Source: a bacterium
GTDB taxonomy: Bacteria > Oederibacteriota > PGYV01 > Palsa-1178
Direction: 5' to 3'
DNA length: 64,000 bases
NCBI GenBank assembly: GCA_037138355.1
Contig: JBAXIL010000003.1
Span: forward strand, 13,065-77,064
Every line of letters starts with the position of its first letter. Position 1 is the first letter of the stretch. The position numbers and the translations under genes are program-made. The notes below the pieces were generated by a model, which saw only the letters and a program-made list of their open reading frames with translations, was not told the DNA's origin and did no database searches. Shown here piece after piece: positions 17,205 to 63,269 of the stretch.

Positions 17205-17250
17205 TTTGTATCTCCTTTATTTAGTCATATATAATATTTAGGCAGTCCTA

Positions 17251-17283: not shown

Positions 17284-17300
17284 TATTGATAGGGGAAAAT

Positions 17301-17334: not shown

Positions 17335-17344
17335 GCATTTTTTA

Positions 17345-20455: not shown

Positions 20456-20513
20456 ACCAATCTCCTTATTATTAGCTTGAAACCGCGATGCTTAAATATT
20501 GCCGCAACGCCGC

Positions 20514-21443
20514 TTATTTGCCGTTTTTTATTTTTAAATTTTGTTTTGAGTTTCCGTTATCTACTATGGCCCCTTCAAAAAGCCTAAAATTTCCGTCAGT
20601 AATTACATTGTCGCCATCTGCTAATAAGCCATCTACTTCAATATTGTCATTAATTCTAAATCCTGTAATTACTTTTACCTGAGAAGCTTTTCCATTTCTG
20701 TTTACATAAACATATGCTCCATCTTCTCCTAAAAGAACAGCTTTTTCTGGAACAACATAACTTTCTTTATTTTCAGTTAATATATCTACATTTACAGACA
20801 TTCCTATTTTTAAAATTTTTCCTTTATTAGCCGCTTTTGCTACTACCGTCCCTGCCATAATATCCTTATCTACAACTGGTGGAACAGAAGCCACAATTGC
20901 ATTTAATGATATGGTCTTGTCATTGGCATAATATATCTGAGCACTTTGTCCTTTTTGAACTTTTAATAAATCATCTTGTCCAAGATTAAAAACTACCTTA
21001 ATTTTATTTTCATTAGCCACTTCAGCCACAGGCATTTGTGGAGATACTGTATCACCCTTGTCCATATAATAAAGTTTTGTAATCATACCTGACACAGGAG
21101 CCTTCACAGGTGCCAGTTCAAAAGTGGCACCTACTATATCGCGGTCTATGTAAGCAATAATATCACCACGCTTAACCATCTGTCCTTCTACTGTATTATT
21201 TTTAGCAAACTTTCCAGCCACTTGAGGATATACCTTCACCTGTGGATCTCCTTCAAGTATTCCTTGAACCGAAAGTACATGTGGGACATTTTGCTTTACA
21301 AGTTTCACATCAGAAATATTAAAGACTACTTCTTTTTGCTTTTTTAAACCATTTGTTACAGAAGTCCCTATCCTATAAATAATAAGAGCAGCTATAACAA
21401 TGCCCAACAAAATTAAAATTCTCTTTACAAGGTTCCTATTCAT
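20514..21443 (-). CDS. RND efflux periplasmic adaptor (MFP), copy 2.
   Basis: TM anchor plus a lipoyl/beta-barrel region (IIAYIDRDIVGATFELAPVKAPVSGMI) paralogous to copy 1. Confidence 0.85.
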   Translation of the reverse strand: MNRNLVKRILILLGIVIAALIIYRIGTSVTNGLKKQKEVVFNISDVKLVKQNVPHVLSVQGILEGDPQVKVYPQVAGKFAKNNTVEGQMVKRGDIIAYIDRDIVGATFELAPVKAPVSGMITKLYYMDKGDTVSPQMPVAEVANENKIKVVFNLGQDDLLKVQKGQSAQIYYANDKTISLNAIVASVPPVVDKDIMAGTVVAKAANKGKILKIGMSVNVDILTENKESYVVPEKAVLLGEDGAYVYVNRNGKASQVKVITGFRINDNIEVDGLLADGDNVITDGNFRLFEGAIVDNGNSKQNLKIKNGK

Positions 21444-21463
21444 TTTTTTGCCTCCAAATTATT

Positions 21464-22900
21464 TTAATTTATAAAATCCTTAAGTTTTTGTGCAGTTGTA
21501 ATATAATTAAACATAGCACTCAAATAATTCATTTTTGCTTTTAATAAACCATTTTCTGCATTTAATAAATCCACTGACTGTATAAGCCCATTTTTATAGG
21601 ACTCCTTTGCTATTCTATAACCTTCCTGGGCAGTTTTAATAAGATCATCTGCAGCTTCTATGACCTGTCTATTTTGTTCAAGAGAAGTGTAAAGCTGCTC
21701 AAGCTGTATAGCGAGCATATTGTCAATATTTTCTTTGTTAAGATCTGCTTTCTCAGTATTTGCCTCTGCTTCTTTTAATGATGCAACATTTTTAAAAGAA
21801 TCAAATACTGTCCACTGGAAACCTATAGTGACATCCCATGAATTCTGCCAATATGCGCTTTCTGTATGAAATGCTTTTTCCGTTGAGTAATAATTGTAAT
21901 TTGCATTCAATGCTATATTTGGCAAAAACATAGCTGCTTGGAGATTTCTGTTAAGCTTTGCTATGTTTGCAACTGATTCCACTATCTCTTTGTCATCATT
22001 TTTTTCCTTAAACTGTTTTAACATATCTTTATATGTAAAATCAAATTTTTTATATTCGGCCACACCCGATAATTTGATGTTTTCATCAAGTGGAATGCCT
22101 ATGGTATTTTTTAACATTTGAAGTGATAGCTTAGCTCCATCATCTGCTTTTTGTGCATCTGGCACAGAATTTGAAAACTGAACCTGCGCCTGTAAAACAT
22201 CAAAGTTTGATGCTTGTCCATTAGCATATTTGGTCTTAGTTATTCTGTAGTATTCTTCATTACTTTTTAATGTTTCTTGCATTGTTTTTGCCATTTCCTG
22301 AGCAATTAAGGCTCCATAAAACGAATTAATAACATCTAAATTTAATTTCTCTGCTGCCTTTTTATAGTTTATCCGAGCAATATTATAACTTTCTTCCGCC
22401 ATTTTCACTCCAAAAAATGTTTTTCCAAAAGTAAAGATCGGTTGTGTCAAAGATACTCTTGCTGAATAATAATTTTGTGGCATAAGCGCTAAAGCTGTAT
22501 CTGATGCAGGAAAACCAGGTCCAAAAGAATTTGCAGGAAGCAATGTACTTGCTAATTTACTGAATGGCTCATAACCACCAGCAATTACAATGGTTGGTCC
22601 AAAAGACCCTGTGGCTTTTGAAAGTTGAGCTTCTGCAGCAGTCTTATCAAGCCCTGCTATTTTATAATCTCTATTCTTTTCAGCTGCCATTTTATAGCAA
22701 TCATCAAAACTCATAACAGTTTTTGTTTGGGTGCTTTCAACTTCAGGAACTAAAGTCGCCTGAATTGTCGGTATTTGTTTTACTACAACTACTTTTTTTG
22801 GTGTTGCTTTTGCAGCAAATATCCCACTCGCTAAAATTAAGCCAACAAACAGAATAATGTTAATTCTCTTCATAATTAATTGCATTGTATTTTCCTCCAT
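21464..22900 (-). CDS. TolC-like outer membrane efflux protein (outer membrane factor).
   Basis: Signal peptide. Two repeated coiled-coil/beta-strand halves with conserved LxxAxxxYxxGxxxxxDVLxA-type motifs (YKNGLIQSVDLLNAENGL, YANGQASNFDVLQAQ). 478 aa. Confidence 0.85.
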   Translation of the reverse strand: MEENTMQLIMKRINIILFVGLILASGIFAAKATPKKVVVVKQIPTIQATLVPEVESTQTKTVMSFDDCYKMAAEKNRDYKIAGLDKTAAEAQLSKATGSFGPTIVIAGGYEPFSKLASTLLPANSFGPGFPASDTALALMPQNYYSARVSLTQPIFTFGKTFFGVKMAEESYNIARINYKKAAEKLNLDVINSFYGALIAQEMAKTMQETLKSNEEYYRITKTKYANGQASNFDVLQAQVQFSNSVPDAQKADDGAKLSLQMLKNTIGIPLDENIKLSGVAEYKKFDFTYKDMLKQFKEKNDDKEIVESVANIAKLNRNLQAAMFLPNIALNANYNYYSTEKAFHTESAYWQNSWDVTIGFQWTVFDSFKNVASLKEAEANTEKADLNKENIDNMLAIQLEQLYTSLEQNRQVIEAADDLIKTAQEGYRIAKESYKNGLIQSVDLLNAENGLLKAKMNYLSAMFNYITTAQKLKDFIN

Positions 22901-23481
22901 TAGTATAATATTTTCCAGGCAAAGCCTGTTTTAATAATCTGTAATTCTCCATAAGACACATTTAGATTTGAATAAGTTGGTCTTTCAATCCTGAGTGACA
23001 AAACTGATGTGTCATTCACATTCCAATTAAGCCCAAATCCAAAATTATAATAATCAGCAAGCCAAGTATTATCTCTATCACCGTTATATCCAGGAATTAT
23101 TTCATACTGACTATGTCTATTAGCAAATGCCCTACCATACTCAAAACATATATCAGGGTAAACTAATAAATTTGGACATATATTAACCCTGATACCTGCA
23201 AAGACAGGATAAAAAGTATAATATTCCTGAGAATTGCTCCTATCGACAAAAAACTGAAAACCTGCTCCAGCATATAGGTCCACCCACTTCGCAATAGTGC
23301 CACCTAACTTAGCATCAAAGACCGCCGTATCATAAGAACCAGTACTATTATTTTCCAGAGTACGCGGCGTAATTAATGATGCGTAGGAAACTCCAAACTC
23401 ACTGAAAATAATTTTTTCAGCCATAAGTGGACTCAAAACTGTTAAAAACATAAACAAAACTAAAATTAATATTTTTTTCAT
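22900..23481 (-). CDS. Small outer-membrane beta-barrel-like protein (193 aa) embedded in efflux operon 2.
   Basis: Signal peptide MKKILILVLFMFLTVLSPLMA. Alternating aromatic/Gly beta-strands. Terminal aromatic (…AWKILY). Stop overlaps the start of the TolC-like gene (22900). Confidence 0.5.
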   Translation of the reverse strand: MKKILILVLFMFLTVLSPLMAEKIIFSEFGVSYASLITPRTLENNSTGSYDTAVFDAKLGGTIAKWVDLYAGAGFQFFVDRSNSQEYYTFYPVFAGIRVNICPNLLVYPDICFEYGRAFANRHSQYEIIPGYNGDRDNTWLADYYNFGFGLNWNVNDTSVLSLRIERPTYSNLNVSYGELQIIKTGFAWKILY

Positions 23482-24466: not shown

Positions 24467-26089
24467 TTACATATTATCTTTTACTATTTTTTTCTTAACT
24501 CCACTTGATGCCAATATCACATGATAAGCAGATAAGGCTGGCATTTCTAAAGTGAATGTATTATTAATTATTTTGTCTATATCCTGTCTCCGTGTTATTT
24601 TAGCCTGACTTAACTTATCAAAGCCATAAGCCTTTCCTGTTTGATATATTTGGTCCGATTTGATTACAATTCTAACCATTGTTGTATTTATTAAATCTTT
24701 ATTTATGATTATGATATGAAGATTTGTTTCGTCGTTACCTTCTATTGAAGCATAAGTTGTTATTTTTGCTACATCAGAAGTATCTGCTTTTATATTTGTA
24801 TCACCATACTTGCCGCTATTTCCGTCATAATTTCTGTATAATCTAAAACCTGCCAAAGTATATGCTCCAAGTTCTGCCATCCAATAATTAGCCATATACA
24901 CTCCATATTTACCAAATATTCCCAATACATCTGCCTCTGCAATACCGCCCGATGGATGATAACCTGCTCCATATTCATATTCCGTAAAAGCAAGCTTGGT
25001 TCCTGGATAATATTTATCAATCATTTCATTTAGCTTTGGAATTAAGCGTATAGGACAATGTCCTGACGCGCATATCCAACTTGTTTCAATATAATTTGGA
25101 TCCCATAAAGACCTCGGGGCTTGAACTCTCGCCTCTGCTGTTTCTTCCGCCACACCTGCGGCCTGTGTGAATACTATTCTTTTTCCATTGGTTGAAGCTT
25201 CTGGATACCAGTGAACATCAAGCGCATCCAGCAAACGCATTCCTTTTGCTTTTGAGGCTTCATTTAACTTTTCTAAATAATACGCCAGATACCAACCGTA
25301 AACATAATAAGGTTTAATGTAATCAGGAGCATCCTGAAAAGTTCTGAATCCATTAAAACCATATGAGGCTGGTCCGTAGATTTCGGCGCTTGGATCTATT
25401 TTTTTCACAGCGCTTGCCGCATCAATAGAAAGCTGAACATACTCTTGTGCCCCAACTTTATTTTGGTGCAACCTTGGATGTGTGGTGGACCAAATATCAG
25501 GTTCATTATCAAGTGAATAACCCTTAACACCTGTTGACGTATCTGCTTTTCCGTATTTATTCACCAGAAAATTTACTTCTTCATCTACATAAACAAACCC
25601 ATCATTTTTATCAGGTTCTAATGATAATTCTTTTCCTTTAGTAAATATTACTTTTGCCCATCTGTCAGATGGTGCTATTTCTTTTACTCCAACAGGTCCA
25701 TTCTTATCTTTTGACACATAACCAGCAAGAGGTAGAGTTATTATAGAATACGCATTTAATGTAAGTGATTTATCGTGAAATGTAGTCAATACAGCACCAG
25801 CTTTATCTTGATCACCTGTCACATTTGCCCAATCTGCCAAATAATTATCAGAAGATTGCTGCCAATCACTACCAGCATTTGAAGCATTATTTTCCCAATT
25901 GTAACCAGTCATTCTATTACCACCTAAACGCCTCGCCGTGTAATTTGTATCCCTCGCAATATCTTGATTGACACCGTATATATAAGGAGAGATTTTTGTT
26001 CTGTCTTTTGATGTATCAATTGTTACATCAACAGCAAAAAGCAATGAAGCATTCAGAAATAATAGTAAGCCAGTCAGTATCCTTTTCAC
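24467..26089 (-). CDS. Secreted glycoside hydrolase, clan GH-A TIM-barrel. Family uncertain, possibly GH44-like.
   Basis: Signal peptide. RLGGNRMTGYNWENNASNAG block. NEP acid/base motif (YSLDNEPDIW) and a TEYE-type nucleophile motif (LAFTEYEYG), as in clan GH-A retaining glycosidases. Confidence 0.55.
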   Translation of the reverse strand: MKRILTGLLLFLNASLLFAVDVTIDTSKDRTKISPYIYGVNQDIARDTNYTARRLGGNRMTGYNWENNASNAGSDWQQSSDNYLADWANVTGDQDKAGAVLTTFHDKSLTLNAYSIITLPLAGYVSKDKNGPVGVKEIAPSDRWAKVIFTKGKELSLEPDKNDGFVYVDEEVNFLVNKYGKADTSTGVKGYSLDNEPDIWSTTHPRLHQNKVGAQEYVQLSIDAASAVKKIDPSAEIYGPASYGFNGFRTFQDAPDYIKPYYVYGWYLAYYLEKLNEASKAKGMRLLDALDVHWYPEASTNGKRIVFTQAAGVAEETAEARVQAPRSLWDPNYIETSWICASGHCPIRLIPKLNEMIDKYYPGTKLAFTEYEYGAGYHPSGGIAEADVLGIFGKYGVYMANYWMAELGAYTLAGFRLYRNYDGNSGKYGDTNIKADTSDVAKITTYASIEGNDETNLHIIIINKDLINTTMVRIVIKSDQIYQTGKAYGFDKLSQAKITRRQDIDKIINNTFTLEMPALSAYHVILASSGVKKKIVKDNM

Positions 26090-26239
26090 AATTCACCTCG
26101 TTTTATTGTATTAATCCTATAAAAGAAGAAACATCTGTGATTTGAATCAAGTAATTGTCTTTAAGTCCCTATAACTATAACGCAAATAAAGCCAAAATGT
26201 TGCTTTTGGGGAGTATGTTTTAGATTTAAGGTATTATGA

Positions 26240-27883
26240 TCAGACTTTATATTTATAAAATGTCTTTATTGCTTCATATAATGTTAGATTGGCGTATGGT
26301 TCAAAAGGCGCACGCAAGGCTTTCATCATTAAAGGACTATGCAATATATAACGATAATTTGCGGAGAATTTTACTCCTGTATGTCCGTCCAATTCATCAG
26401 TGGTATAAGGAAGGTTTAATACCCAAACCGTGCTTCCTTTTATCTTATATCCAGTAATTAATGAGTAAGCATTATTAACAAGCGCTATTCTCTTTCCATT
26501 TTGTATTTCCCTACTAATAAATATATTGTCATCAAGCATTTCTTCCGCACCGCGAAAAGTTATGGTCTCTACCTGTATGTGGTCTTCTAATTCTTCTATT
26601 TCAAAATATTTTTTTAAACATTTAGCGGCTTCCACAGTTAAAACAATATTTTTTCTATTTTTGATAAGGAAGGCAAAAAGTGCTGGAAAATCTTCTTTGC
26701 GTGCTGACTGAGCTGTTAGAATTACTATCTTTTCCTTTACATTTCTTTTATCCGTAAGATAAGCAGGGATTCCTGCCATTAAAAAATATTGTGCAAGCAG
26801 TTCATCTCCATAAGTATTTGCTTCTCTTATCATAGGTATAGTAAATATCTTTCCAAAAGATGACAAGCGTCCCATCTTATCAGTTTTTTCTATAAGTTCT
26901 TCTACTAAAGGTCTCATTATAGGTTGAGGCATAATACCTGCACAGAACAATATAATTTCTTCTGCTCCACCCAAGACAGACTGAAAAGCTTGTTCTGTGT
27001 ATATTTCTTTATTGCACTGGTATATGTCAAACCATGCCTTTTTAACCTTACCTGGAGCAATTTGTTTTATATATTTAAAGAACATTGAACCATAAGCAGG
27101 CAAAAACCTTGCTTGTTTAAAATCACGGGTTTCCGTTCCAACGCCTATCTCATCATATATATCAATAAGCTTTGTGAGATCATAACCACGATCATAAAAA
27201 CGCTCATACCACTGAGGAAGCTTAAGTATAATATTCACATTTGGATTTACTTTTTTTGCTGGTTCAATAATAAATTTCTTTGAAACATCAAAAAGTAATT
27301 TAGACCTATACTCCTGCCATGTCTTTTTTCCTTTACCTTTTTTACATTCAGTACATTCACAAGAAGTAAAAAACCAATCATCTATTATTATCTCATCAAA
27401 TAGACCTGCTGTTATTTCAAAAACTTTCTTCATTTTTTTATTTGCTTCTTTATCAGAAAAACAACCTGAAGCTGTTGGAGTTTCATTTTTCACTTTGTCA
27501 GAAAAATGCGTAGGTGTAACAGCCCCAGAAACTTCGTATCCCTCTTCTATTAATTCGGCTTTCATAGCTTCTATTACAGGTATGTCTACCGTGTAACCAT
27601 CTCTATATGTTTCAAGATATACTTTCTTAATAGATAAAGGAGAAAAAATACCCATAAATTTTTTAATAATAGGTCCATAATCGCGTACATCAAAAGCAGT
27701 AAAGAAAAGTGCATAATAAAAATTCTTAGGGGATATGGTTTTTCCTTTAAAAGGCGTAAAATCATTTATAAGGGGGTCTTTTGGAACTGAAATAGGCCAC
27801 TTAGCAAGCGGCCTTAAGTTCTTAGCGGGGTAATTCAAACTTTCTACAAATTCAATCTGTTTTTGTTTAATCTTTTCGGTCAT
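26240..27883 (-). CDS. Uncharacterised cytoplasmic protein (547 aa) with a CxCxxC motif. Possibly a glycoside-hydrolase-like enzyme functionally linked to the adjacent secreted GH.
   Basis: No signal peptide. TSCECTEC cysteine triad (GH42 beta-galactosidases carry a CxCxxC zinc site, but the rest does not clearly match). Sits between the GH gene and the divergent MarR-emrAB promoter region. Confidence 0.4.
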   Translation of the reverse strand: MTEKIKQKQIEFVESLNYPAKNLRPLAKWPISVPKDPLINDFTPFKGKTISPKNFYYALFFTAFDVRDYGPIIKKFMGIFSPLSIKKVYLETYRDGYTVDIPVIEAMKAELIEEGYEVSGAVTPTHFSDKVKNETPTASGCFSDKEANKKMKKVFEITAGLFDEIIIDDWFFTSCECTECKKGKGKKTWQEYRSKLLFDVSKKFIIEPAKKVNPNVNIILKLPQWYERFYDRGYDLTKLIDIYDEIGVGTETRDFKQARFLPAYGSMFFKYIKQIAPGKVKKAWFDIYQCNKEIYTEQAFQSVLGGAEEIILFCAGIMPQPIMRPLVEELIEKTDKMGRLSSFGKIFTIPMIREANTYGDELLAQYFLMAGIPAYLTDKRNVKEKIVILTAQSARKEDFPALFAFLIKNRKNIVLTVEAAKCLKKYFEIEELEDHIQVETITFRGAEEMLDDNIFISREIQNGKRIALVNNAYSLITGYKIKGSTVWVLNLPYTTDELDGHTGVKFSANYRYILHSPLMMKALRAPFEPYANLTLYEAIKTFYKYKV

Positions 27884-56405: not shown

Positions 56406-58748
56406 TTATTCCCCCGTAACTTTTTTTAGGAATATCTGATTTTCCTTCCCTGCCTGCATCATATAATATTCTTTTACAGAATCACCATTAGAATCAAAAG
56501 AAAAATTTCCTGTTGCCCCAGGATAATTTTTTACTGAAGCCATTGCATTTCTAAAATTTTCCCTGGAAGTAATCTGTCTGTTTATAATCGAACCAACAAT
56601 CATTAAAGCATCATAAGATGTGGCTGCTATTACTTCAGGAGTATTAGCATATTTATCTTTATATTTTTTTACAAATTCTGACACTGGCACTTCTACATCA
56701 TCAGGATAAAATTCCAATGGATAAATAATTCCTTCTACATTTTCCTTAAAGCTATCTATATAACCAGACGACATGGCAGAACTTCCAAAAACTGGTAAAT
56801 CAAAATCATAGAACTTCAACTGGTCTTTTATTAAAACCATTTTTCTGTCTGTTGCAGGAATATATAAAGCATCTATTGTTATTGGATTTTTTTTCGGATC
56901 TTTAATTTTTCTATAATCTAAAATCAGCTCATCTAATAATGCCTCATCTTTTACTGATATGGTTTGCAATGTAATACTAAATTTCAGATAATCATCTTCA
57001 GTAAAATTATAAACAATACTTGTATTTCCCGTTGCATCTGTCACAACATCAGGCATAAAATTAGCATAAATAGTATTAGATTTTTCCTCAACAATCTTTC
57101 CCCATATCAGCACATCGGCTCCCTGTTTTGAGGCTATATTTAGGGCTGTTTCTCTGTCCAAATCTTCAGCATCAACTCCCATAGAAACCATATCATCATC
57201 TACACTTTTTTGTTTAATCACTTCTGAAGCGCTTGATTTTGCTAAAGTATAACTTAGCTTATTTGTCATATCTTCGTCTATCAAAAGTCTCCTTATATTT
57301 TCCCCATGAGGAGACAAATGAACAAGACAAATACTAATATGTTTTATTTTCGGATCAGGTGTAGGTTTTGGTATAGCATTATCGTTTGGAGGTATTATAT
57401 TCATATAATCATATACTTTTGCCAGCATTTTTTTTCCTGCTGATTCCATTTGTTCATCAAGTTTCATTTTTTCTGTGGCATGTTTTTCTTTAAGCAGTAT
57501 TGTATTAATTCCTCCTAAAAGAACCATTTGGTCCTGAAAATCATTTACCTTTGGATCATACACAACCTGTTTTACTAAATTTCCGCCATGACTTTTTATT
57601 TTTTCTACAAATGAATCATTTAATATTTTTCCATAAGCATTATCGGAATATAAAGTAGCTATATTTCTAAAAGAAGTATTCTCCATAATATATTTGGCTG
57701 TAGAGTAAGCCTGTCCTTTGGCAGTTCCGCAATTTCTAAAGAAATACGAACTTTTCCCAGTTAAATCAGGCTGTCCAGCTGTTGAGGAAAAAAGCACAGT
57801 ATTATATTGATCCATTATCGGGATAAGAGTTTTAACTGTTTTAGAATAAAGTGGTCCCATAAAAGCTATTATACCTTGTGTATCTATGGCACTAATTACT
57901 TGTGCTTTAAGATCTGGGCTTTCTTCATCTATATAAATCAAGTTCAAAGTCATACCCGTCTTGTTTGTTTCATTATAGTCATCCATAGCTATGTCAAAGC
58001 CATTTTTAACCAAACTACCTATATCCATGGATTTACCAGTGAGGGGTATTATCACACCTATTTTATTTGCTTTTAATGGTTTATATTTTAAAGCCGCTTT
58101 ATAGTCGTCAGTTATTTCCTGATAGAAAAGACTATCCCTAAAATCAATTAAGAAAATATTTGCATTAAAATAAAATTCATCAAAACTATTCTCTGTATAA
58201 TCCATTTTGCACAAGTAATATATTGCGTATTCATCAATCATTTGATAAATATGTTTTGCGTATACATTTTTTAAATCTTCTTTTTTCATAGAAGCTATAG
58301 TTGCCTTAAGCCTATCGATTGCCACATCCTGAAAAACTGAGAACTGATGGCGTTTTTCAAGTAATAGCTTAAGCCTCTCGAGTCCTTTATCAATTTCATT
58401 TTGTTCAATATTTATATCAAACAATCTTACTACTGAAAGATAACCCATATCAGTATCGGAATAATATTTTTCATTAAATTCAAAATATTTTATAGCATCA
58501 GAATAATTTTTTTTATTGTAATAATATTGTCCTGACCAAAAGGTCCCGCGTGATCTCTCTATTGAATCTTTTCCATCCTGTGCTGTTTTTTTCCAATAAT
58601 CAAAATCCTCATCAGACACCTGTACGCTTTTATCTATTCCAGAGGCATTAGGTGTTATGGCAATTTTGGCGGTAGCACATCCAGACATGGAGTATGCCAA
58701 AATGCTTAAAATAAAAAACAATGTAAAGAATTTAATAATGTTTTTCAT
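56406..58748 (-). CDS. Lipoprotein with an N-terminal TPR-like helical region and a C-terminal periplasmic-binding-protein type I (LivK-like) domain carrying a large insertion. LpoA-like architecture.
   Basis: Lipobox YSMSGC. Helical repeats with W/Y-rich TPR-like segments. KIGVIIPLTGK...GIIAFMGPLYS and C-lobe ...ATSYDALMIV... of type I PBPs. 780 aa. Confidence 0.55.
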   Translation of the reverse strand: MKNIIKFFTLFFILSILAYSMSGCATAKIAITPNASGIDKSVQVSDEDFDYWKKTAQDGKDSIERSRGTFWSGQYYYNKKNYSDAIKYFEFNEKYYSDTDMGYLSVVRLFDINIEQNEIDKGLERLKLLLEKRHQFSVFQDVAIDRLKATIASMKKEDLKNVYAKHIYQMIDEYAIYYLCKMDYTENSFDEFYFNANIFLIDFRDSLFYQEITDDYKAALKYKPLKANKIGVIIPLTGKSMDIGSLVKNGFDIAMDDYNETNKTGMTLNLIYIDEESPDLKAQVISAIDTQGIIAFMGPLYSKTVKTLIPIMDQYNTVLFSSTAGQPDLTGKSSYFFRNCGTAKGQAYSTAKYIMENTSFRNIATLYSDNAYGKILNDSFVEKIKSHGGNLVKQVVYDPKVNDFQDQMVLLGGINTILLKEKHATEKMKLDEQMESAGKKMLAKVYDYMNIIPPNDNAIPKPTPDPKIKHISICLVHLSPHGENIRRLLIDEDMTNKLSYTLAKSSASEVIKQKSVDDDMVSMGVDAEDLDRETALNIASKQGADVLIWGKIVEEKSNTIYANFMPDVVTDATGNTSIVYNFTEDDYLKFSITLQTISVKDEALLDELILDYRKIKDPKKNPITIDALYIPATDRKMVLIKDQLKFYDFDLPVFGSSAMSSGYIDSFKENVEGIIYPLEFYPDDVEVPVSEFVKKYKDKYANTPEVIAATSYDALMIVGSIINRQITSRENFRNAMASVKNYPGATGNFSFDSNGDSVKEYYMMQAGKENQIFLKKVTGE

Positions 58749-58774
58749 GTTTTCCTTTTCATTTCTTTCAAAAT

Positions 58775-59704
58775 TTACTTAGAAGTATCTTGGTTTACTG
58801 TAACTTTATATTTATTTTTTAATTCGGTAATAGTACTTTCAAATAGTTGCTGTTGCTTTTTTGCCTTTATCATTTTGTTTATTTTATCTTTTGAATCATC
58901 ATATGAATATTTTTTTCTATCCAAAACTTTTATTATATGGTAACCATATACAGATTTTACAGGTTGTGATACTTCTCCGTCTGCTAAAGCAAAAGCTGTG
59001 TCTTCAAATTCTTGAACCATAACTCCTTTTGTAAAAGTTCCAAGATTTCCACCTTTTTCTTTGGTAGTAGTATCCTCAGAATATTTTTTTGCTATTTCAT
59101 CAAAGGCCTCACCGCCTATTATTCTTTTATATAAAGAATCAACAAGCTGTTTGTTTTTTATCAATATATGTTGTGCCTTTAGTTCAACAAAATCTCCTAT
59201 ATGGGCATCATAATAGTTTTTTGCATCTTTTTCTGATACTTGTGATTTTTTTTCTACATTATCTAAATAATACTGATGAGACAATAGCTCATCCATATCC
59301 CAATCATATTTAGCTTTTGTATCTGCTTTTTCTGTATACCCAAGTGACCGTGCTTCCATAGCCATCATTTTTTTATTTATTATATACTGTATAAACTCTT
59401 TTTCTTGTTCATCAGTCAGTTTGTAATCAAACTTTTGTTTCATATAATCAGTGATTACCTTAAACTTTTCTTTTGTTAGGACATAGTCTCCAATTGTGGC
59501 TATTGTCCTTTTATCAAGCTTTTTAAAATCTTCCCCTGCAAAAGAATCCATTTCCTGTTTGTCTGAATCACTTGCTGACGCTTGCATTTGTTCACTTGTG
59601 GTGAGTAAGCTGTTGTCTGGTTTCACTTGCGTAGTTGTTGTATCACAAGCCGACATAAATAAAATCACTGTAGCCACAGCAAAAATAATCATTAATTTTT
59701 TCAT
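58775..59704 (-). CDS. Parvulin-type peptidyl-prolyl cis-trans isomerase lipoprotein (SurA/PrsA-like).
   Basis: Lipobox LFMSAC. SurA-N-like helical domain. Parvulin domain (GGNLGTFTKGVMVQEFEDTAFAL...GYHIIKV). 309 aa. Confidence 0.8.
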   Translation of the reverse strand: MKKLMIIFAVATVILFMSACDTTTTQVKPDNSLLTTSEQMQASASDSDKQEMDSFAGEDFKKLDKRTIATIGDYVLTKEKFKVITDYMKQKFDYKLTDEQEKEFIQYIINKKMMAMEARSLGYTEKADTKAKYDWDMDELLSHQYYLDNVEKKSQVSEKDAKNYYDAHIGDFVELKAQHILIKNKQLVDSLYKRIIGGEAFDEIAKKYSEDTTTKEKGGNLGTFTKGVMVQEFEDTAFALADGEVSQPVKSVYGYHIIKVLDRKKYSYDDSKDKINKMIKAKKQQQLFESTITELKNKYKVTVNQDTSK

Positions 59705-59714
59705 TTTTCTCCTC

Positions 59715-61037
59715 TTATGCTTTATAATATTTTTTGTAATACATTAACGGATTAGGTTTTGTTTCGCACTCAGTTCCTATTAATATCTTAGATATCCTTT
59801 TTTCTCGTCTGGCTTCATGTAATCTTGTAATAATTTTATCCCTCAATTCATAAGGGTTCATAGGATTTATATAAACTTTTGTGCCCCCTTCAAAACCAGC
59901 CGGTGTATTTACCCTGAGCTTTATAAGAATATGTAAAGGCATTACATCTATGGAATCTTTTGGAGTATAGTACCACTCTTCATTAGTTGCTATCTGATTT
60001 GTGATTGCATGATGAACTGCATGAACTATATCCGAGAAGCCGCGTAATTCTTTGTCTGACATTTCGTATGGATAAACAGCTTCACTTTTTGAAAAAATTC
60101 CTATAGTTGGGAACCTGTGTCCTATGTCAGAAAATGCAATTGCATAATCATTTTCCGCCACCACCAGATTAAAATATGTCGCCATATTTGCTCCCATCTC
60201 ATTATATATGTTCGGGTTTTTTCTGATTAGATTTATTTCTCTTTCTATAGAAACGCCCCACTCATCTATAGCCACAAGTTGCTTATGAAGATGATCAAAA
60301 GATGCCCCTGCAGGTTTTAACCAATTTTGAAATATAGAAACATATCTGGCATATTTATTGTATGTATAAATATCCACAAGACCCTTAATAGTGAATTTTA
60401 GATATTGATAGTGTTCTTTTGGTGACATTTCACCTGAACTACACAGTTGAGTTTCAAATTCGGCATCTTTAATATAATGACTCCTGCCTACAATGAGTTC
60501 GTGTCCTCCAGCAAAAAAAGCATCCGACATATCAATCTTTTCTTTTTCTGAGACTTGCGTTGGATCCCTTCCCAAAAGTTGTAATTTCATATTGATTATA
60601 TGCATTACATGTTCATATCCAGCTTTGTCTGCAAGATAATCGTCTTTTCTTTTCTTTACATCTTCTGGATACTGATATCCAAAATTCTTTTTCCAATATT
60701 CCATAGTAACTATTTCAAAAAGGTTTGGAACGCGTCTAAATTCCGCCGTGGTCTGTCTAAGTATTCCTGGTTTTAAACCTTTGATTGCTACATACTTTCC
60801 ACCTATTTTTACAAGTCGTTCTTTTTCAGGTGGTGTATTTTCATATTTTTCCTCACAAAAATTACAATAATCTTCTTTTTTCTTTTTCTCTATTTTTTTT
60901 GCAGTAGTCGGTATAGAGTTTGTAATCGGTTTGCTCGCCCTTCCAGGAACTGTCCAAACTTCTGTTCCTGTAAATGGGTTAATTTGTTTTATAGTACCAT
61001 CTTGCATTCTGATAAAAAACTGATTGTAATTTGACAT
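59715..61037 (-). CDS. GalT-like HIT-superfamily nucleotidyltransferase (galactose-1-phosphate uridylyltransferase family).
   Basis: N-terminal INPFTGTEVWTVPGRASKP... with CxxC (CNFCEE). HxHxQ active-site motif (FDHLHKQLV). 440 aa. Confidence 0.65.
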   Translation of the reverse strand: MSNYNQFFIRMQDGTIKQINPFTGTEVWTVPGRASKPITNSIPTTAKKIEKKKKEDYCNFCEEKYENTPPEKERLVKIGGKYVAIKGLKPGILRQTTAEFRRVPNLFEIVTMEYWKKNFGYQYPEDVKKRKDDYLADKAGYEHVMHIINMKLQLLGRDPTQVSEKEKIDMSDAFFAGGHELIVGRSHYIKDAEFETQLCSSGEMSPKEHYQYLKFTIKGLVDIYTYNKYARYVSIFQNWLKPAGASFDHLHKQLVAIDEWGVSIEREINLIRKNPNIYNEMGANMATYFNLVVAENDYAIAFSDIGHRFPTIGIFSKSEAVYPYEMSDKELRGFSDIVHAVHHAITNQIATNEEWYYTPKDSIDVMPLHILIKLRVNTPAGFEGGTKVYINPMNPYELRDKIITRLHEARREKRISKILIGTECETKPNPLMYYKKYYKA

Positions 61038-61301
61038 AAATCCACCTCTTTCCTTATTATATTTCCTGCTGGATTAGTGAATAGTTTAAATTATATATGA
61101 TTTTAGGTTTTAAGTAAATAGATGAAATTGCTTTATAAATAGGCTATTATCTTGTTTTTTTATTAATAAACCTACCCTATAATCAGTAAATAGATCACAA
61201 CAGAAAGTTATTACATTAATGTTATATAAACATTTATGTATTGCTATTTTTCAGGCATTATTCTAAAATTAATTAGAAACATAAAATTAATGGGGTGTTA
61301 T

Positions 61302-63269
61302 TTGAAAAAACTAACAATAGCATCATTTCTAATAATAAGTTTTTACATGTATATCTTTGGTGCCGCCGACTTTGTCGGGACTACAAGTGCTAATTTTATC
61401 AAAATACCTCCATTTGCCCGTGCAGCAGCTATGGGCGAAGCTTTTACTGCAGTATCTGACGGTACCTACGGGCTTTATTATAATCCTGCCGGAATATCCT
61501 CGGTTTTAGGTTATGAAGTGCAGTTCTCACACATTAACTGGTTTCAAAATATACAGTATGAACATTTAGCGCTGGTTTGTCCTGTGCCTTTTACCGATAC
61601 TGGAAAACTCGGTTTTGCCATTTCCTTATTTCGCGTGGGAGATATGACTCGCACCACAGCATTAGCTTCTTATGATCCTTCTTACTTATCAACTATTGAC
61701 TGGTCCCAATTTTCAAATCGTTTTTCACCTTATGACTTGGGAATTACTATAGGTTATGCCATGGACATTAAAGATTATTTATCTGCTGGAATAACAATCA
61801 AATACATATCACAAAATATTGATACAAATTCTGGTTCAAACATTACTGCCGATATAGGTCTAATGTACAAACAATATTCAAATGGAAATTATCTGAGACT
61901 TGCCGTAGACATGTCAAACTTAGGAACAGAACTAAAAATGCATTTATTATCTTTTGAACCACCACAAATTTTTAAAGTAGGACTATCTGACGAATTTAAA
62001 ATTTGGACAGGCACTCTTTTGATATCATCTCAAGGGCTCATACAACCTGATTATGATCCATTATATTCTATTGGTTTTGAATATTGGTTTAACGAAATAT
62101 TTGCCATTCGTTTTGGTTATGAAACTGGAGCCTTTGACCGTCCTACTTTTGGCTTAGGCTTGCGTTACTGGGGCGCAGAAATAGATTATGCCTTCATTAA
62201 CTACGATGAACTTGGCCCGACACACAGATTTTCAGTTTTATATGCTTGGGGCACACCTTCTGCCAAACTTAAAGTTTACCCAACTATTTTTTCTCCTAAC
62301 AATGATAAATTTTTGGATACCACTGTCTTTACACCAGTGCTTAAATTGCAAGAAAAATTACGCTCAGTGAAGCTTAATATTTATGGAACGGATGGTTTTA
62401 CTTTACTTGCTAAATTTCCACTAAAAGATAAATTACAAAAATCAATTCTCTGGGGAGGAATGGTTACAGGAAAAACACTTCCTGATGGAGTTTATCAAGC
62501 AAGTATCACTGCCGAATATGATAACGGCACTACTGATTCAAACAAGGTTCCAATAGAAATAGACAATACTCCTCCTGAAATACGCGTGGATGCTGACCCA
62601 AAACTACTTAAACCAAATCAAAAAGACGCCCTCATAGTACCTGCCACCTTTACCTTCTTTTCACAGGACAGAAATAAAGTAGTCAAATGGCAATTTGTTA
62701 TTTGGGATTATAATAAAAAATTATTTAACACTATACACGGAGACGGAGAACCCCCTCTGTCATATATATGGGATGGAAAAGGACTAAATAATCAATACAT
62801 TCAAACAGGTGAAGTTTACTACTATAGTTTCATAACTTTTGACTCTGTAGGTAATAAAGCCCAAACCAAAGTAGAAGCCATAGTAGTTTTGCTTAAAGAA
62901 ATAAAACTTACCTTTTCTTCAGATGCCCTTTTTGATCTCGGTAAAGCAGATGTTAAAATTTCCGCCTACTCGGTTTTAAAGACCATAAAAAATGTTATCG
63001 ATAAAAATCCTGAATCAGATATTGTAGTCGCTGGATATACCGATAATAGTCCTCTGCTTGGCCTAAAATATCGTGACAATACTGAACTTTCTAAAGCCCG
63101 TGCGGATGCTGTAAAGTTTTTTATGGTAAACCTACTCGGATATGAAGAAAAAAGGATAAAAACTCAAGGGTATGGGGAGCTCAATCCTATAGCGGATAAC
63201 GGAACAGTTGAAGGTCGTTTAAAAAATAGACGAGTTGAGATAATTATTCAAAGCACCATTTATAAATAA
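61302..63269 (+). CDS. Outer-membrane fusion protein: PorV/UPF0164-like FadL-type beta-barrel, two FlgD-Ig-like (T9SS-CTD-related) domains, and a C-terminal OmpA peptidoglycan-binding domain. Start most likely the TTG at 61302 (MKKLTIASFLIISFYMYIFGA/ADF); the alternative ATG is at 61290.
   Basis: Barrel signature FIKIPPFARAAAMGEAFTAVSDGTYGLYYNPAGI. Ig-like segments starting IFSPNNDKFLDT... and a second copy (ATFTFFSQDRNKVV...). OmpA domain (AGYTDNSPL...LSKARADAV...NRRVEI). Confidence 0.68.
   Translation: MKKLTIASFLIISFYMYIFGAADFVGTTSANFIKIPPFARAAAMGEAFTAVSDGTYGLYYNPAGISSVLGYEVQFSHINWFQNIQYEHLALVCPVPFTDTGKLGFAISLFRVGDMTRTTALASYDPSYLSTIDWSQFSNRFSPYDLGITIGYAMDIKDYLSAGITIKYISQNIDTNSGSNITADIGLMYKQYSNGNYLRLAVDMSNLGTELKMHLLSFEPPQIFKVGLSDEFKIWTGTLLISSQGLIQPDYDPLYSIGFEYWFNEIFAIRFGYETGAFDRPTFGLGLRYWGAEIDYAFINYDELGPTHRFSVLYAWGTPSAKLKVYPTIFSPNNDKFLDTTVFTPVLKLQEKLRSVKLNIYGTDGFTLLAKFPLKDKLQKSILWGGMVTGKTLPDGVYQASITAEYDNGTTDSNKVPIEIDNTPPEIRVDADPKLLKPNQKDALIVPATFTFFSQDRNKVVKWQFVIWDYNKKLFNTIHGDGEPPLSYIWDGKGLNNQYIQTGEVYYYSFITFDSVGNKAQTKVEAIVVLLKEIKLTFSSDALFDLGKADVKISAYSVLKTIKNVIDKNPESDIVVAGYTDNSPLLGLKYRDNTELSKARADAVKFFMVNLLGYEEKRIKTQGYGELNPIADNGTVEGRLKNRRVEIIIQSTIYK

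What the first reader, a model, noticed from the sequence alone, without database searches (positions are those of the whole stretch)
61302..63269. Single polypeptide joining a PorV/UPF0164-like outer-membrane barrel, two FlgD-Ig (T9SS-CTD-like) domains and an OmpA peptidoglycan anchor
The N-terminal 330 aa carry the PorV/PorQ/UPF0164 hallmark (F.KIPP.ARAAAMGEAFTAV.D....YYNPAG). The middle has two Ig-like modules beginning with the FSPNNDxxxD-type motif seen in FlgD-Ig and T9SS C-terminal sorting domains. The C-terminus is a canonical OmpA_C domain (TDNxG....N..LSxxRAxAV.....NRRVEI).

PorV proteins normally act as free shuttles that bind T9SS cargo C-terminal domains. Here a PorV-like barrel is covalently tethered to CTD-like Ig domains and to peptidoglycan. 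That suggests an auto-inhibited or structural variant, or a cell-envelope tether, in an organism outside Bacteroidota with no visible T9SS core genes in this window.
Basis: partly seen in the sequence, partly recalled or inferred. Interest (0 to 1): 0.6.

Follow-up and report, generated by a model that had tools for sequence, protein, structure and literature searches.

The report
Peptidoglycan-anchored PorV-family outer-membrane barrel
A real, conserved gene of an uncultured Goldbacteria-lineage bacterium encodes one protein joining a 14-stranded PorV/FadL-type outer-membrane barrel, two periplasmic Ig-like domains and an OmpA/MotB-type cell-wall-binding domain; it is most likely an outer-membrane-to-cell-wall tether, not a type IX secretion part.

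Summary
Window 61302..63269 (+) is one uninterrupted 655-codon gene, and it matches NCBI's own gene call.

**Architecture**
- Signal peptide.
- PorV-type N-terminal hatch with an invariant NPA motif.
- 14-stranded barrel. NCBIfam PorV/PorQ family scores 165 bits against a cut-off of 90, and the best PDB fold match is the T9SS PorV chain.
- Two homologous Ig-like domains.
- OmpA/MotB-type peptidoglycan-binding domain with its D and R ligand residues conserved.

**Family**
- More than 70 full-length homologues (34-80% identity) share this architecture, so it is not a frameshift artefact.
- There are often 2-3 paralogues per genome, in MAGs labelled Goldiibacteriota, FCPU426, 'Spirochaetia' or just 'bacterium'.
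- The window's UvrB places the organism in the Goldbacteria lineage.

**Interpretation**
- The protein fails the PorV, PorQ and PorV2 equivalog models.
- It carries no type A sorting domain.
- No T9SS gene was found in the 64-kb window or in the paralogue neighbourhoods examined.
- An even strand count and loop asymmetry place the Ig and OmpA domains in the periplasm. The Ig domains therefore cannot act as secretion signals or as surface cargo mimics.

**Best reading:** a single-chain tether between outer membrane and cell wall, functionally parallel to OmpA/OprF and to the two-protein PorP-PorE bridge. The strongly conserved hatch suggests the barrel also has a FadL/PorV-type function. This is a new variant of known kinds and of moderate interest.

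The parts
61302..63269 (+). Whole gene: 655 codons plus stop, TTG start. In-frame ATGs at 61236 and 61290 are probably not used.
   Evidence: ORF list. NCBI 655-aa call. Homologue N-termini begin MKK. Translation of each part verified.
61293..61298 (+). Shine-Dalgarno-like GGGGTG, five bases before the TTG start
   Evidence: Sequence read directly; inference.
61031..61060 (+). Best sigma-70-like promoter match (TTGACA, 18 nt, TATTAT; 11 of 12) in the 264-bp divergent intergenic region. Candidate only.
   Evidence: Consensus scan: 16 sites found against 11.8 expected, so not significant on its own.
61302..61364 (+). Sec signal peptide (MKKLTIASFLIISFYMYIFGA), with no lipobox
   Evidence: Sequence. 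Helix 2-16 followed by a low-pLDDT segment in the model. Similar N-termini across the family. The cleavage site is inferred.
61380..61505 (+). N-terminal hatch/plug segment with the PorV/UPF0164 hallmark (TTSANFIKIPPFARAAAMGEAFTAV...YYNPAG). This is the most conserved part of the protein.
   Evidence: Mean pairwise identity 0.67 against 0.41 for the barrel. Aligns to the N-terminus of F. johnsoniae PorV 6h3i_F.
61482..61490 (+). NPA motif (N61-P62-A63), the FadL-type hatch motif
   Evidence: Invariant in 44 of 44 members. [quoted passage not shown]
61512..62249 (+). 14-stranded outer-membrane beta-barrel (residues 71-316). Long loops L2 (32 aa) and L4 (14 aa) lie on one face; turns of 2-6 aa lie on the other.
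   Evidence: DSSP of the model. Foldseek: PorV E 6e-15 and 2e-13, FadL 2r89 E 3.5e-7. Loop asymmetry, with indels concentrated in L2.
62256..62576 (+). Ig-like domain 1 (residues 319-425), FlgD_ig/CHU_C-like, begins FSPNNDKFLD
   Evidence: Models. Homologues score FlgD_ig 27.6-47.5 bits and CHU_C 25.6-33.9 bits on this domain. A2 profile against FlgD 3osv gives E 0.008.
62577..62897 (+). Ig-like domain 2 (residues 426-532), a divergent copy of Ig1
   Evidence: hhalign Ig1 against Ig2: probability 96.5%, E 7.6e-10. Mean pairwise identity 0.50.
62898..63266 (+). OmpA_C / MotB-type peptidoglycan-binding domain (residues 533-655)
   Evidence: Pfam OmpA 58.8 bits. phmmer against PDB: MotB 6ysl E 7e-19, OprF 5u1h E 1e-17. 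Foldseek TMt 0.7-0.9.
63042..63044 (+). Asp581 of the TDN motif, the putative diaminopimelate-binding residue
   Evidence: D in 43 of 44 members. Aligned to GHTD of OprF and MotB. The ligand role is taken from my knowledge of OmpA-like domains (Park et al. 2012, cited in PMC5053529).
63099..63101 (+). Arg600 of the LSxxRA motif, the putative diaminopimelate-binding residue
   Evidence: R in 44 of 44 members. Aligned to LSxxRA of OprF and MotB.

Best explanation
The gene encodes a bipartite outer-membrane protein.

**How it is built and placed**
- After Sec export, the N-terminal 300 or so residues insert as a 14-stranded PorV/FadL-superfamily barrel, plugged by a conserved NPA-containing hatch.
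- The chain leaves the barrel on the periplasmic face and continues as two tandem Ig-like domains. From typical Ig-domain dimensions, these would form a spacer of roughly 8-9 nm.
- It ends in an OmpA/MotB-type domain that binds peptidoglycan non-covalently.

**What it does**
- The protein staples the outer membrane to the cell wall at a set distance.
- It does in one chain what OmpA/OprF do with an 8-stranded barrel, and what the T9SS PorP barrel plus the PorE lipoprotein do as two proteins.
- It acts independently of a type IX secretion system.
- Because the hatch is the most conserved segment, the barrel probably also keeps a FadL/PorV-type activity. That could be lateral passage or binding of a hydrophobic or lipid-linked molecule, or docking of a partner.

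**Shown:** the architecture, the fold, conservation of the ligand residues, and family and paralogue conservation.
**Inferred:** the topology, peptidoglycan binding, the spacer role, T9SS independence and the barrel function.
For: - **Single conserved ORF:** more than 70 full-length homologues.
- **Barrel:** PorV_fam 165 bits against 90. Model pLDDT 84.6 with 14 strands. PorV is the top PDB fold hit.
- **Topology:** even strand count, and loops of 63 residues on one face against 17 on the other. This places the C-terminal modules in the periplasm, where an OmpA_C domain must act.
- **OmpA_C:** Pfam 58.8 bits. MotB and OprF at E 1e-17 to 7e-19. D581 is kept in 43 of 44 members and R600 in 44 of 44.
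- **Ig pair:** confident model, pLDDT 90.5. Its best two-domain match is the rod-like SiiE BIg tandem, TMq 0.61.
- **Reusable module:** the Ig-Ig-OmpA_C cassette recurs in barrel-less FlgD-Ig repeat proteins of 1000-5700 aa in Rectinemataceae and Elusimicrobia.
- **No T9SS link found:** none in the window or in the paralogue contexts. Those contexts instead hold envelope-glycan genes, PPIases, an S49 peptidase, a PD40 propeller and a TolC-like OEP.
- **Positive control:** T9SS type A tails were readily detected beside barrel-only relatives in Ignavibacteria.
- **Precedents:** the PorE-PorP peptidoglycan bridge (PMC9143113); bipartite FadL-like OMPs in T. pallidum (PMC8407342); tether length sets periplasm size (PMC5736177 and PMC8824477).
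Against: - There is no experimental or direct computational test of peptidoglycan binding or localisation.
- No PAE or coordinates were available, so the inter-domain geometry (pTM 0.63) and the extended-spacer picture are not verified.
- The Ig domains are as conserved as the barrel (0.42-0.50 against 0.41) and the hatch is more so (0.67). This argues that the protein does more than passive tethering.
- Only 64 kb of the genome and about 20 kb around each paralogue were seen, so a T9SS elsewhere in the genome is not excluded.
- Whether these genomes also have canonical OmpA, Pal or Lpp is unknown.
- Ig1 does resemble the T9SS type B signal domain at profile level in 24 of 44 members.
Confidence: 0.55

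Rival explanations
1. The protein is primarily a FadL-type uptake channel for hydrophobic or poorly soluble substrates. The Ig-OmpA tail only positions or stabilises it, or hands substrate on across the periplasm.
For: - The NPA hatch motif is invariant and the hatch is the most conserved region.
- FadL 2r89 is a significant fold match, E 3.5e-7.
- T. pallidum FadL-like barrels with periplasmic C-terminal extensions have been proposed to shuttle cargo (PMC8407342).
- Multiple paralogues per genome would fit different substrates.
Against: - There is no Pfam Toluene_X/FadL hit, and the PorV family fits much better than FadL.
- The same hatch motif is present in PorV, which is not known as a transporter.
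- FadL-type barrels also serve purely structural roles, for example BamG (PMC12578637).
- No lipid or aromatic catabolic genes are conserved beside the gene.
Confidence: 0.2
2. The protein is a component of a type IX-like secretion or attachment system. It would be a single-chain equivalent of the PorP-PorE anchoring module, or a PorQ/PorV-like docking barrel fixed to the wall.
For: - PorV is the best fold match, and the protein belongs to the PorV/PorQ family.
- Ig1 matches the CHU_C type B signal domain in 24 of 44 members.
- PorE carries an Ig-like CRD followed by OmpA_C, and bridges the PorP barrel to peptidoglycan (PMC9143113).
- One paralogue group sits just after a 788-aa PD40 beta-propeller protein, and PorE also has a propeller.
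Against: - The protein fails the PorV, PorQ and PorV2 equivalogs: 67.6 against 250, 75.5 against 220, and 52.1 against 325.
- No T9SS gene or type A CTD protein was seen in the window or in any paralogue context. Such tails were found at once in Ignavibacteria loci.
- The lineage is Goldbacteria, sister to Elusimicrobia. T9SS is described as Bacteroidota- or FCB-specific (abstracts).
- The nearest barrel-only relatives sit in operons with TonB-dependent-receptor-like genes and unannotated large ORFs, with no PorU-type match among the neighbours tested.
Confidence: 0.1
3. The protein is a flagellum-associated outer-membrane element. This would follow the 'MotB' name given by JGI and the FlgD-type Ig domains, for example a wall-anchored ring or bushing partner.
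For: - JGI names several homologues MotB.
- The OmpA_C domain is closest in sequence to MotB 6ysl.
- There is weak FlgD similarity.
- Goldbacteria carry flagellar genes.
- One paralogue lies about 4 kb from a flgB-fliJ cluster.
Against: - MotB is an inner-membrane protein with one transmembrane helix, whereas this protein has a signal peptide and a 14-stranded barrel.
- MotB equivalog scores are far below their cut-offs: 87.6 against 301 and 92.2 against 283.
- Flagellar linkage appears in one of about ten contexts and is separated by murA and an MCP gene.
- FlgD_ig is a widespread Ig family.
Confidence: 0.05
4. One reading: the tethered CTD-like Ig domains dock onto the PorV-like barrel and block its cargo site.
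For: - Ig1 resembles FlgD_ig and CHU_C.
- The Ig domains are well conserved.
Against: - The Ig domains lie between the periplasmic barrel end and a peptidoglycan-binding domain, so they are periplasmic.
- They are internal, not C-terminal.
- Fold search gives generic tandem Ig/FN3 hits.
- The same Ig-Ig-OmpA cassette occurs without any barrel.
Confidence: 0.04
5. Assembly or annotation artefact: separate genes fused by a sequencing error.
For: None found.
Against: - The identical protein is found on four independent contigs from ENA, NCBI and Logan.
- More than 70 full-length homologues of 614-710 aa exist down to 34% identity.
- At least 21 clusters at 50% identity span the whole profile.
Confidence: 0.01

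Closest known systems
T9SS PorV (F. johnsoniae PorV, PDB 6h3i/8gl6 chain F; P. gingivalis PorV/LptO) and PorQ
   Same: - 14-stranded FadL-superfamily barrel; PorV is the top fold hit, TMt 0.65-0.69.
- Shares the N-terminal hatch motif, TT..F......ARAA.(M/L)G...NPA.
- Passes the NCBIfam PorV/PorQ family model.
   Different: - Fails the PorV, PorQ and PorV2 equivalog models.
- Carries a 340-residue periplasmic extension (Ig-Ig-OmpA_C) that PorV lacks.
- Has no T9SS neighbours, and the lineage is outside Bacteroidota/FCB.
PorP-PorE(-PG1035) complex of the P. gingivalis T9SS
   Same: A 14-stranded outer-membrane barrel is linked to peptidoglycan through an Ig-like domain plus an OmpA_C domain. PorE was proposed to bridge the cell wall and PorP (PMC9143113, PMC7192894).
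   Different: - There it takes two proteins: the PorP barrel, and the PorE lipoprotein with TPR and propeller domains. Here it is one chain.
- No TPR or propeller is present.
- No PorP/SprF family model appeared among the matches.
- No T9SS context.
OmpA / OprF / Omp38 class of OM-peptidoglycan tethers
   Same: An N-terminal outer-membrane barrel plus a C-terminal OmpA_C domain with the conserved D and R ligand residues. The predicted job is the same.
   Different: - The barrel has 14 strands with a hatch, not 8 strands.
- Two Ig domains replace the short Pro/Ala-rich hinge.
- The OmpA_C domain is of the MotB-like subtype, with a longer TDN...LS loop.
Treponema pallidum FadL-like/UPF0164 proteins TP0548, TP0859, TP0865
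   Same: - Pfam UPF0164 membership is marginal, 22.7 against 21.4.
- 14-stranded barrel with an NPA hatch, and a 'bipartite' topology with a periplasmic C-terminal extension (PMC8407342).
   Different: Their extension is a small TPR-like helical bundle with no peptidoglycan-binding domain. Here it is Ig-Ig-OmpA_C.
FlgD-Ig repeat / OmpA family proteins (Rectinemataceae, Elusimicrobia; Leptospira Lsa66-type)
   Same: - They share the Ig-Ig-OmpA_C cassette, matching profile positions about 320-650 at E down to 1e-188.
- The Ig region hits NCBIfam Lsa66_OmpA at E 3e-7.
- Lsa66 is described in PMC3130794.
   Different: - Those proteins have 4-17 matched stretches of the Ig-OmpA profile. P0079, the one aligned in detail, shows only Ig repeats where the query has its barrel.
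- The Lsa66 equivalog is not met: 29 bits against a cut-off of 700.
BamG of the Bacteroidota BAM complex
   Same: A FadL-family 14-stranded barrel used as a structural subunit rather than a transporter, with a conserved N-terminal segment and PPIase partners (PMC12578637). PPIase genes lie beside two of the paralogue groups here.
   Different: - No BamG model hit was found for this protein.
- BamG has no periplasmic Ig or OmpA extension.
- The PPIase link here is only adjacency.

Membership tests
PorV/PorQ family (NCBIfam NF033709, subfamily level) | Whole-protein HMM score above the curated cut-off (90 bits) | tested here: met
   162.2 bits for the full protein and 165 bits for the barrel alone, matching profile positions 1-325 of 326.
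PorV/PorQ family (NCBIfam NF033709, subfamily level) | 14-stranded FadL-like barrel with an N-terminal plug carrying the ARAxxxG...NPA motif | tested here: met
   14 strands in the model. PorV chains are the top Foldseek hits. The motif aligns to 6h3i_F. NPA is invariant.
T9SS PorV proper (NF033710 equivalog) | Equivalog HMM score of at least 250 bits | tested here: not met
   64-67.6 bits. Pfam PorV scores 16.4 against 27.
T9SS PorV proper (NF033710 equivalog) | Occurs in a genome with the T9SS core (SprA/Sov, PorK/L/M/N, PorU, PorT) and CTD-bearing cargo | not testable with these tools
   Only 64 kb of the genome is held. None of these genes was found in the window or in about ten paralogue contexts.
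T9SS PorQ (NF033711) and PorV2 (NF052325) equivalogs | Equivalog HMM score above the cut-off (220 and 325 bits) | tested here: not met
   75.5 and 52.1 bits.
OmpA_C-like peptidoglycan-binding domain (PF00691) | Pfam score above the gathering threshold, and the beta-alpha-beta-alpha-beta-beta fold | tested here: met
   58.8 bits against 27.2. Foldseek TMt 0.7-0.9 to OprF, AbOmpA, MotB and TagL domains. phmmer E down to 7e-19.
OmpA_C-like peptidoglycan-binding domain (PF00691) | Conserved Asp and Arg that bind the diaminopimelate of the stem peptide | tested here: met
   D581 in 43 of 44 members and R600 in 44 of 44, aligned with the TD and LSxxRA motifs of OprF and MotB. Actual binding was not tested.
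FlgD_ig (PF13860) | Pfam score of at least 27 bits on the Ig domain | tested here: inconclusive
   The window protein scores 13.1 bits, E 0.098. Homologues score 27.6-47.5 bits on Ig1, and 32 of 44 members reach E<=1e-3. Ig2 is never hit directly; it is linked to Ig1 by hhalign.
T9SS type A C-terminal sorting domain (TIGR04183 / PF18962) | HMM match, located at the extreme C-terminus | tested here: not met
   No hit in the window protein at E<=1 (Pfam) or among the NCBIfam matches shown. No hit in 44 members at E<=1e-3. The C-terminus is OmpA_C. As a positive control, TIGR04183 was detected in Ignavibacteria neighbours.
T9SS type B C-terminal domain (CHU_C, PF13585) | HMM match above 27 bits | tested here: inconclusive
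   No hit in the window protein. In seven homologues tested, scores of 25.6-33.9 bits overlap the FlgD_ig hit on Ig1, covering profile positions 4-80 of 86. 24 of 44 members reach E<=1e-3.
T9SS type B C-terminal domain (CHU_C, PF13585) | Located at the C-terminus of a secreted cargo protein | tested here: not met
   The domain is internal (residues 319-425 of 655) and predicted to be periplasmic.
FadL / Toluene_X transporters (PF03349) | Pfam match, and a hatch with the NPA motif | tested here: inconclusive
   No Pfam hit in the window protein. The fold match to FadL 2r89 is E 3.5e-7 with TMt 0.51. The NPA motif is present and invariant.
MotB (name given by JGI) | N-terminal transmembrane helix with the plug, pairing with MotA, and an equivalog score | tested here: not met
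   MotB and MotD equivalogs score 87.6 against 301 and 92.2 against 283, matching only the C-terminal domain. The N-terminus is a signal peptide plus barrel. No motA gene is adjacent.

The most novel reading that the evidence does not exclude
The family is a single-chain version of the T9SS outer-membrane anchoring module: barrel, Ig-like or type-B-CTD-like domain, and OmpA_C, as in PorP-PG1035-PorE. It would survive in a lineage outside the FCB group. It could be a relic or precursor showing how PorV/PorP barrels were first wired to the cell wall. Alternatively it could be the hub of an undescribed Goldbacteria surface-attachment or export system that uses wall-anchored PorV-type barrels.
Probability: 0.08. 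Interest if true: 0.7.

Novelty: new variant of a known kind. Interest (0 to 1): 0.35.

Why it matters
- **Naming:** PorV/PorQ-family barrels are not confined to type IX secretion. A family name in automatic annotation ('PorV/PorQ family protein', 'MotB') should not be read as evidence for T9SS or for a flagellar stator in candidate phyla.
- **A third tether design:** after lipoprotein tethers (Lpp, Pal) and 8-stranded OmpA-type barrels, this is a 14-stranded hatch-plugged barrel with a rigid two-Ig spacer. The spacer could act as a molecular ruler for periplasm width in Goldbacteria.
- **Evolution:** the parallel with PorP-PorE offers a simple model for how barrel-to-wall bridges evolve by fusion or fission.

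Tried and rejected
2. **Bacteroidota 'full-length' match (L058).** The tblastn hit turned out to span three separate ORFs, so it is not the same architecture.
3. **Paralogue in the window.** None found; tblastn returned only the gene itself.
4. **PorP-PorE fusion precedent.** I recalled one from memory, but searching three papers for 'fused' or 'fusion' gave nothing relevant. It is not claimed.
5. **Conserved operon partner.** Each paralogue group has its own context, and the window copy is monocistronic between a divergent and a convergent gene. No single partner could be named. Envelope-glycan genes recur, but they are common in genomes, so I did not treat this as evidence.
6. **Nearest barrel-only relatives as true PorV next to porU.** Among the neighbours tested, one family is TonB-dependent-receptor-like. 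The large ORFs directly upstream of the barrel have no NCBIfam match, so no PorU-type match was found.
7. **Promoter and terminator scan.** It gave no more sites than shuffled sequence.


Full report

The region contains one open reading frame, 61236..63269 on the plus strand, with no internal stop. It is the start NCBI uses for the identical protein MEI7541849.1, 655 aa, named 'MAG: PorV/PorQ family protein [bacterium]'. A GGGGTG lies five bases upstream, and the start yields the MKK... N-terminus shared by homologues.

The exact protein occurs on four independently assembled contigs from ENA, NCBI MAG GCA_964536475.1 and Logan. A search of 5.8 billion proteins returned more than 70 full-length homologues. 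They are 614-710 aa long, 34-80% identical, and cover 93-100% of the query. A profile search of 1.84 billion cluster representatives found at least 21 clusters at 50% identity that match the whole profile in a single stretch. A frameshift or fusion artefact is excluded.

**2. Anatomy**

Residue numbers refer to the 655-aa protein; the coordinates were verified. The AlphaFold model built on a 44-sequence alignment has mean pLDDT 84.6.

| Part | Residues | Notes |
|---|---|---|
| Signal peptide | 1-21 | No lipobox |
| Hatch | 27-68 | TTSANFIKIPPFARAAAMGEAFTAVSDGTYGLYYNPAG |
| Barrel | 71-316 | Fourteen beta-strands |
| Ig1 | 319-425 | Beta-sandwich |
| Ig2 | 426-532 | Beta-sandwich |
| OmpA_C | 533-655 | Alpha/beta domain |

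*The barrel*
- NCBIfam's PorV/PorQ family model scores 165 bits against a cut-off of 90, end to end.
- Pfam UPF0164 is just above threshold, while Pfam PorV is below it.
- In Foldseek against the PDB, the two best hits are the PorV chain of the F. johnsoniae translocon: 8gl6_F at E 6e-15 and 6h3i_F at E 2e-13, TMt 0.65-0.69. FadL follows at E 3.5e-7.
- By sequence, PorV is the only solved structure matched, and the match lies in the hatch motif.
- The hatch is the most conserved part of the family, with mean pairwise identity 0.67 against 0.41 for the barrel.
- Its NPA tripeptide is invariant in 44 of 44 members. In FadL this motif is needed for the substrate-induced hatch movement (PMC8407342).

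*The C-terminal domain*
- It passes Pfam OmpA at 58.8 bits against 27.2.
- It matches MotB, OprF, Omp38 and TagL domains by sequence, with E down to 7e-19, and by fold.
- The Asp of TDN is kept in 43 of 44 members, and the Arg of LSxxRA in all 44.
- It carries the longer TDN...LS loop typical of MotB. This probably explains why JGI names several homologues 'MotB'.

*The middle domains*
- Modelled alone, the Ig pair reaches pLDDT 90.5.
- Ig1 and Ig2 are homologous to each other: hhalign probability 96.5%, E 7.6e-10.
- In the window protein the FlgD_ig match is sub-threshold, 13.1 bits.
- Across the family, FlgD_ig is found in 32 of 44 members (best E 1.7e-12) and CHU_C, the T9SS type B signal domain, in 24 of 44 (best E 3.6e-8).
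- Both hits fall on Ig1. FlgD_ig scores 27.6-47.5 bits and CHU_C 25.6-33.9 bits, against cut-offs of 27.
- No type A sorting domain was detected.
- The family profile weakly matches FlgD (3osv, E 0.008) and the C5a-peptidase Fn domain.
- Fold search of the pair returns generic tandem Ig/FN3 rods. The SiiE BIg pair gives TMq 0.61, followed by the Ig domains of PorU and FN3 pairs. No CTD structure appears in the top 50.

**3. Topology**

The barrel has an even number of strands. Connections on one face are long (3, 32, 2, 14, 6, 3 and 3 residues; 63 in all) and hold most of the indels. Those on the other face are short (6, 2, 2, 2, 3 and 2; 17 in all).

By the general rule for outer-membrane barrels, the long-loop face is outside. 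Both chain ends are then periplasmic, which is where a peptidoglycan-binding domain has to be. The Ig pair is therefore periplasmic and internal to the chain. It cannot be a T9SS C-terminal signal. It also cannot mimic cargo at the outer face of a PorV-type barrel. This is inference from the model; no PAE or coordinates were available.

**4. Organism and context**

*Organism*
- The window has about 33% GC, and nearly all genes are on the minus strand.
- Its UvrB has a tight set of relatives at 68-86% identity. Their named members are Candidatus Goldiibacteriota/Goldbacteria and an FCPU426 MAG. Identity then drops sharply to about 62% for other phyla.
- FCPU426 and Goldbacteria are the same lineage. 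It is sister to Firestonebacteria and Elusimicrobia, cellulolytic and flagellated (PMC7031533).
- The window's GH44 fits that lifestyle, and TolC/AcrB sets show a diderm envelope.

*Window genes*
- All 48 window ORFs of 150 aa or more were scanned (47 listed genes plus a shadow ORF). They are housekeeping, efflux, glycan-synthesis or unknown. None is a T9SS component or carries a T9SS tail.
- The gene stands alone between two neighbours. Upstream is a divergent operon: DUF4921, a PrsA/SurA-like parvulin lipoprotein, a 780-aa LpoA/LppC-like lipoprotein, then hisS-pdxA-ksgA-glmS. Downstream is a convergent acyl-CoA synthetase.

*Paralogues in related genomes*
- A scan of 185,579 species genomes found full-length relatives in 29 loci. 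The MAGs are labelled FCPU426, Goldiibacteriota, 'uncultured Spirochaetia', 'Methylomirabilis' or just 'bacterium', with two or three paralogues in each of nine MAGs.
- One paralogue group ends an operon of PMT_2+PA14, GT2, LPG_synthase_TM and cyclophilin.
- A second group follows an S49 peptidase and a 788-aa PD40 propeller protein.
- A third lies near Wzy_C, PMT_2, GT4, GT9 and a TolC-like gene.
- Others lie near small FlgD_ig proteins, or 4 kb from a flagellar cluster.
- None of these contexts holds T9SS genes.

*Barrel-only relatives*
- Relatives at about 30% identity occur in Ignavibacteria, Calditrichota, Marinimicrobia, WOR-3, Elusimicrobia, Nitrospira and Leptospirales MAGs.
- In the first four groups they close an operon with a TonB-dependent-receptor-like gene and large unannotated proteins. 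No PorU-type match was found among the neighbours tested.
- The relative that was scanned (L045) also fails the PorV equivalog, at 99.7 against 250.
- T9SS type A tails were readily detected in their neighbours, which serves as a positive control for the negative result in the Goldbacteria loci.

*The cassette elsewhere*
- The Ig-Ig-OmpA_C cassette occurs in many copies-per-protein in 1000-5700-aa 'FlgD immunoglobulin-like domain containing' or 'OmpA family' proteins of Rectinemataceae and Elusimicrobia. P0079, the one aligned in detail, has no barrel.
- PorV-type barrels fused to FN3 domains, without OmpA, also exist.
- The window protein is therefore a shuffle of two widespread modules.

**5. 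How it most likely works**

After Sec export and barrel insertion, the protein has its barrel in the outer membrane. A two-Ig rod hangs into the periplasm, and the OmpA/MotB-type domain grips the peptidoglycan stem peptide. The result is a non-covalent tether between outer membrane and cell wall.

Two Ig domains would span roughly 8-9 nm. This figure comes from my knowledge of Ig-domain dimensions and was not measured here. Tether length is known to set periplasm dimensions in E. coli (PMC5736177 and PMC8824477).

Two observations suggest more than passive anchoring. The hatch and its NPA motif are extremely conserved, and the Ig domains are as conserved as the barrel. The barrel probably retains a FadL/PorV-type activity: lateral handling of a hydrophobic or lipid-linked molecule, or partner docking. 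FadL-type barrels are known in all three roles: transporter, T9SS shuttle, and BAM subunit BamG.

I give the tether-plus-functional-barrel reading 0.55. The rivals are:

| Rival reading | Confidence |
|---|---|
| Transport as the primary role | 0.2 |
| T9SS-like module | 0.1 |
| Flagellar element | 0.05 |
| Auto-inhibition | 0.04 |
| Artefact | 0.01 |

**6. Comparison with what is known**

It works like OmpA/OprF, and like the PorP-PorE bridge. In that bridge PorE's OmpA_C domain binds peptidoglycan and PorE binds the 14-stranded PorP barrel (PMC9143113, PMC7192894).

- It is a member of the broad PorV/PorQ family and of the OmpA_C family.
- It is not a PorV, PorQ, PorV2 or MotB orthologue, because the equivalog scores were tested and not met.
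- FlgD_ig and CHU_C membership of Ig1 is borderline.
[quoted passage not shown] Theirs is a helical bundle, and the authors found no other such extension in Pfam FadL members.
- Literature searches for 'PorV-like', 'PorV family' and related terms found no description of this architecture.

**7. Verdict**

The tether reading holds, the organism is outside Bacteroidota, and no T9SS genes are in view. The auto-inhibited PorV idea is not supported.
- Novelty: a new variant (domain architecture) of known kinds, already auto-annotated but uncharacterised.
- Interest is moderate, 0.35.
- The main open points are whether the genome has any T9SS, whether canonical tethers are absent, and what the conserved hatch does.

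Noticed in passing
window 56406-61037 (-): An envelope-biogenesis-looking operon lies divergent from the target. It runs DUF4921 (GalT/HIT-like, 601 bits), then a PrsA/SurA-like parvulin lipoprotein, then a 780-aa lipoprotein with LppC/LpoA and split Peripla_BP_6 matches, then hisS-pdxA-ksgA-glmS. The PPIase-pdxA-ksgA linkage recalls the E. coli surA-pdxA-ksgA operon.
   Followed up: partly
window 12683-23481 (-): Two tandem RND efflux sets (AcrB 1033 and 1036 aa, each with a HlyD-type adaptor) plus one TolC-like OEP and a 193-aa ORF with no Pfam hit.
   Followed up: partly
window 24467-27883 (-): A GH44 glycoside hydrolase (539 aa; only residues 68-297 are covered by Pfam) sits next to a 547-aa ORF with no Pfam match at E<=0.01. 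Neither carries a detectable T9SS tail.
   Followed up: partly
window 1-64000: GC skew is negative in all but one of the 2-kb bins (cumulative -5.7), and almost all genes are on the minus strand. The target is one of the few plus-strand genes.
   Followed up: no
window 8879-9897: A 324-aa plus-strand ORF almost completely overlaps the minus-strand PALP-enzyme gene (8938-9897). It is most likely a shadow ORF.
   Followed up: no
L023 3929-11848; L024 184-5701: Paralogue-specific operons. In L023: a 406-aa unknown, PMT_2+PA14 (743 aa), GT2, LPG_synthase_TM and cyclophilin precede the barrel gene. In L024: an S49 peptidase and a 788-aa PD40 beta-propeller protein precede it. The propeller-then-barrel-OmpA order is reminiscent of PorE's domain content.
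   Followed up: partly
P0098 / P0245 (4065 and 5734 aa), P0110 (2249 aa, Rectinemataceae), P0257 (1049 aa, Elusimicrobia): Large to giant proteins built from up to 17 matched stretches of the same Ig-OmpA profile. Where checked (P0104, P0110, P0079), they end in OmpA_C. The N-terminal anchor of these proteins was not examined.
   Followed up: partly
L033-L080 (e.g. L046 3475-6318, L055 6372-9839, L045 9887-10897): In Ignavibacteria, Calditrichota, Marinimicrobia and WOR-3, barrel-only PorV_fam genes close a conserved operon. It holds a TonB-dependent-receptor-like protein (about 950 aa) and unannotated proteins of 700-1190 aa. Sometimes a second FadL/BamG-like barrel follows. This is an uncharacterised PorV_fam system distinct from porU-porV.
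   Followed up: partly
L085 12064-14920: Two small FlgD_ig-domain proteins (404 and 196 aa) lie immediately downstream of one paralogue. They are possible periplasmic partners.
   Followed up: no
L002, L003, L005, L006, L013, L015, L016, L020, L022 (record titles): MAGs labelled 'uncultured Spirochaetia bacterium', and one labelled 'Methylomirabilis', carry the family. A 'Spirochaetia'-labelled UvrB also falls inside the Goldbacteria cluster at 76% identity. The taxonomic labels of these MAGs look unreliable.
   Followed up: partly
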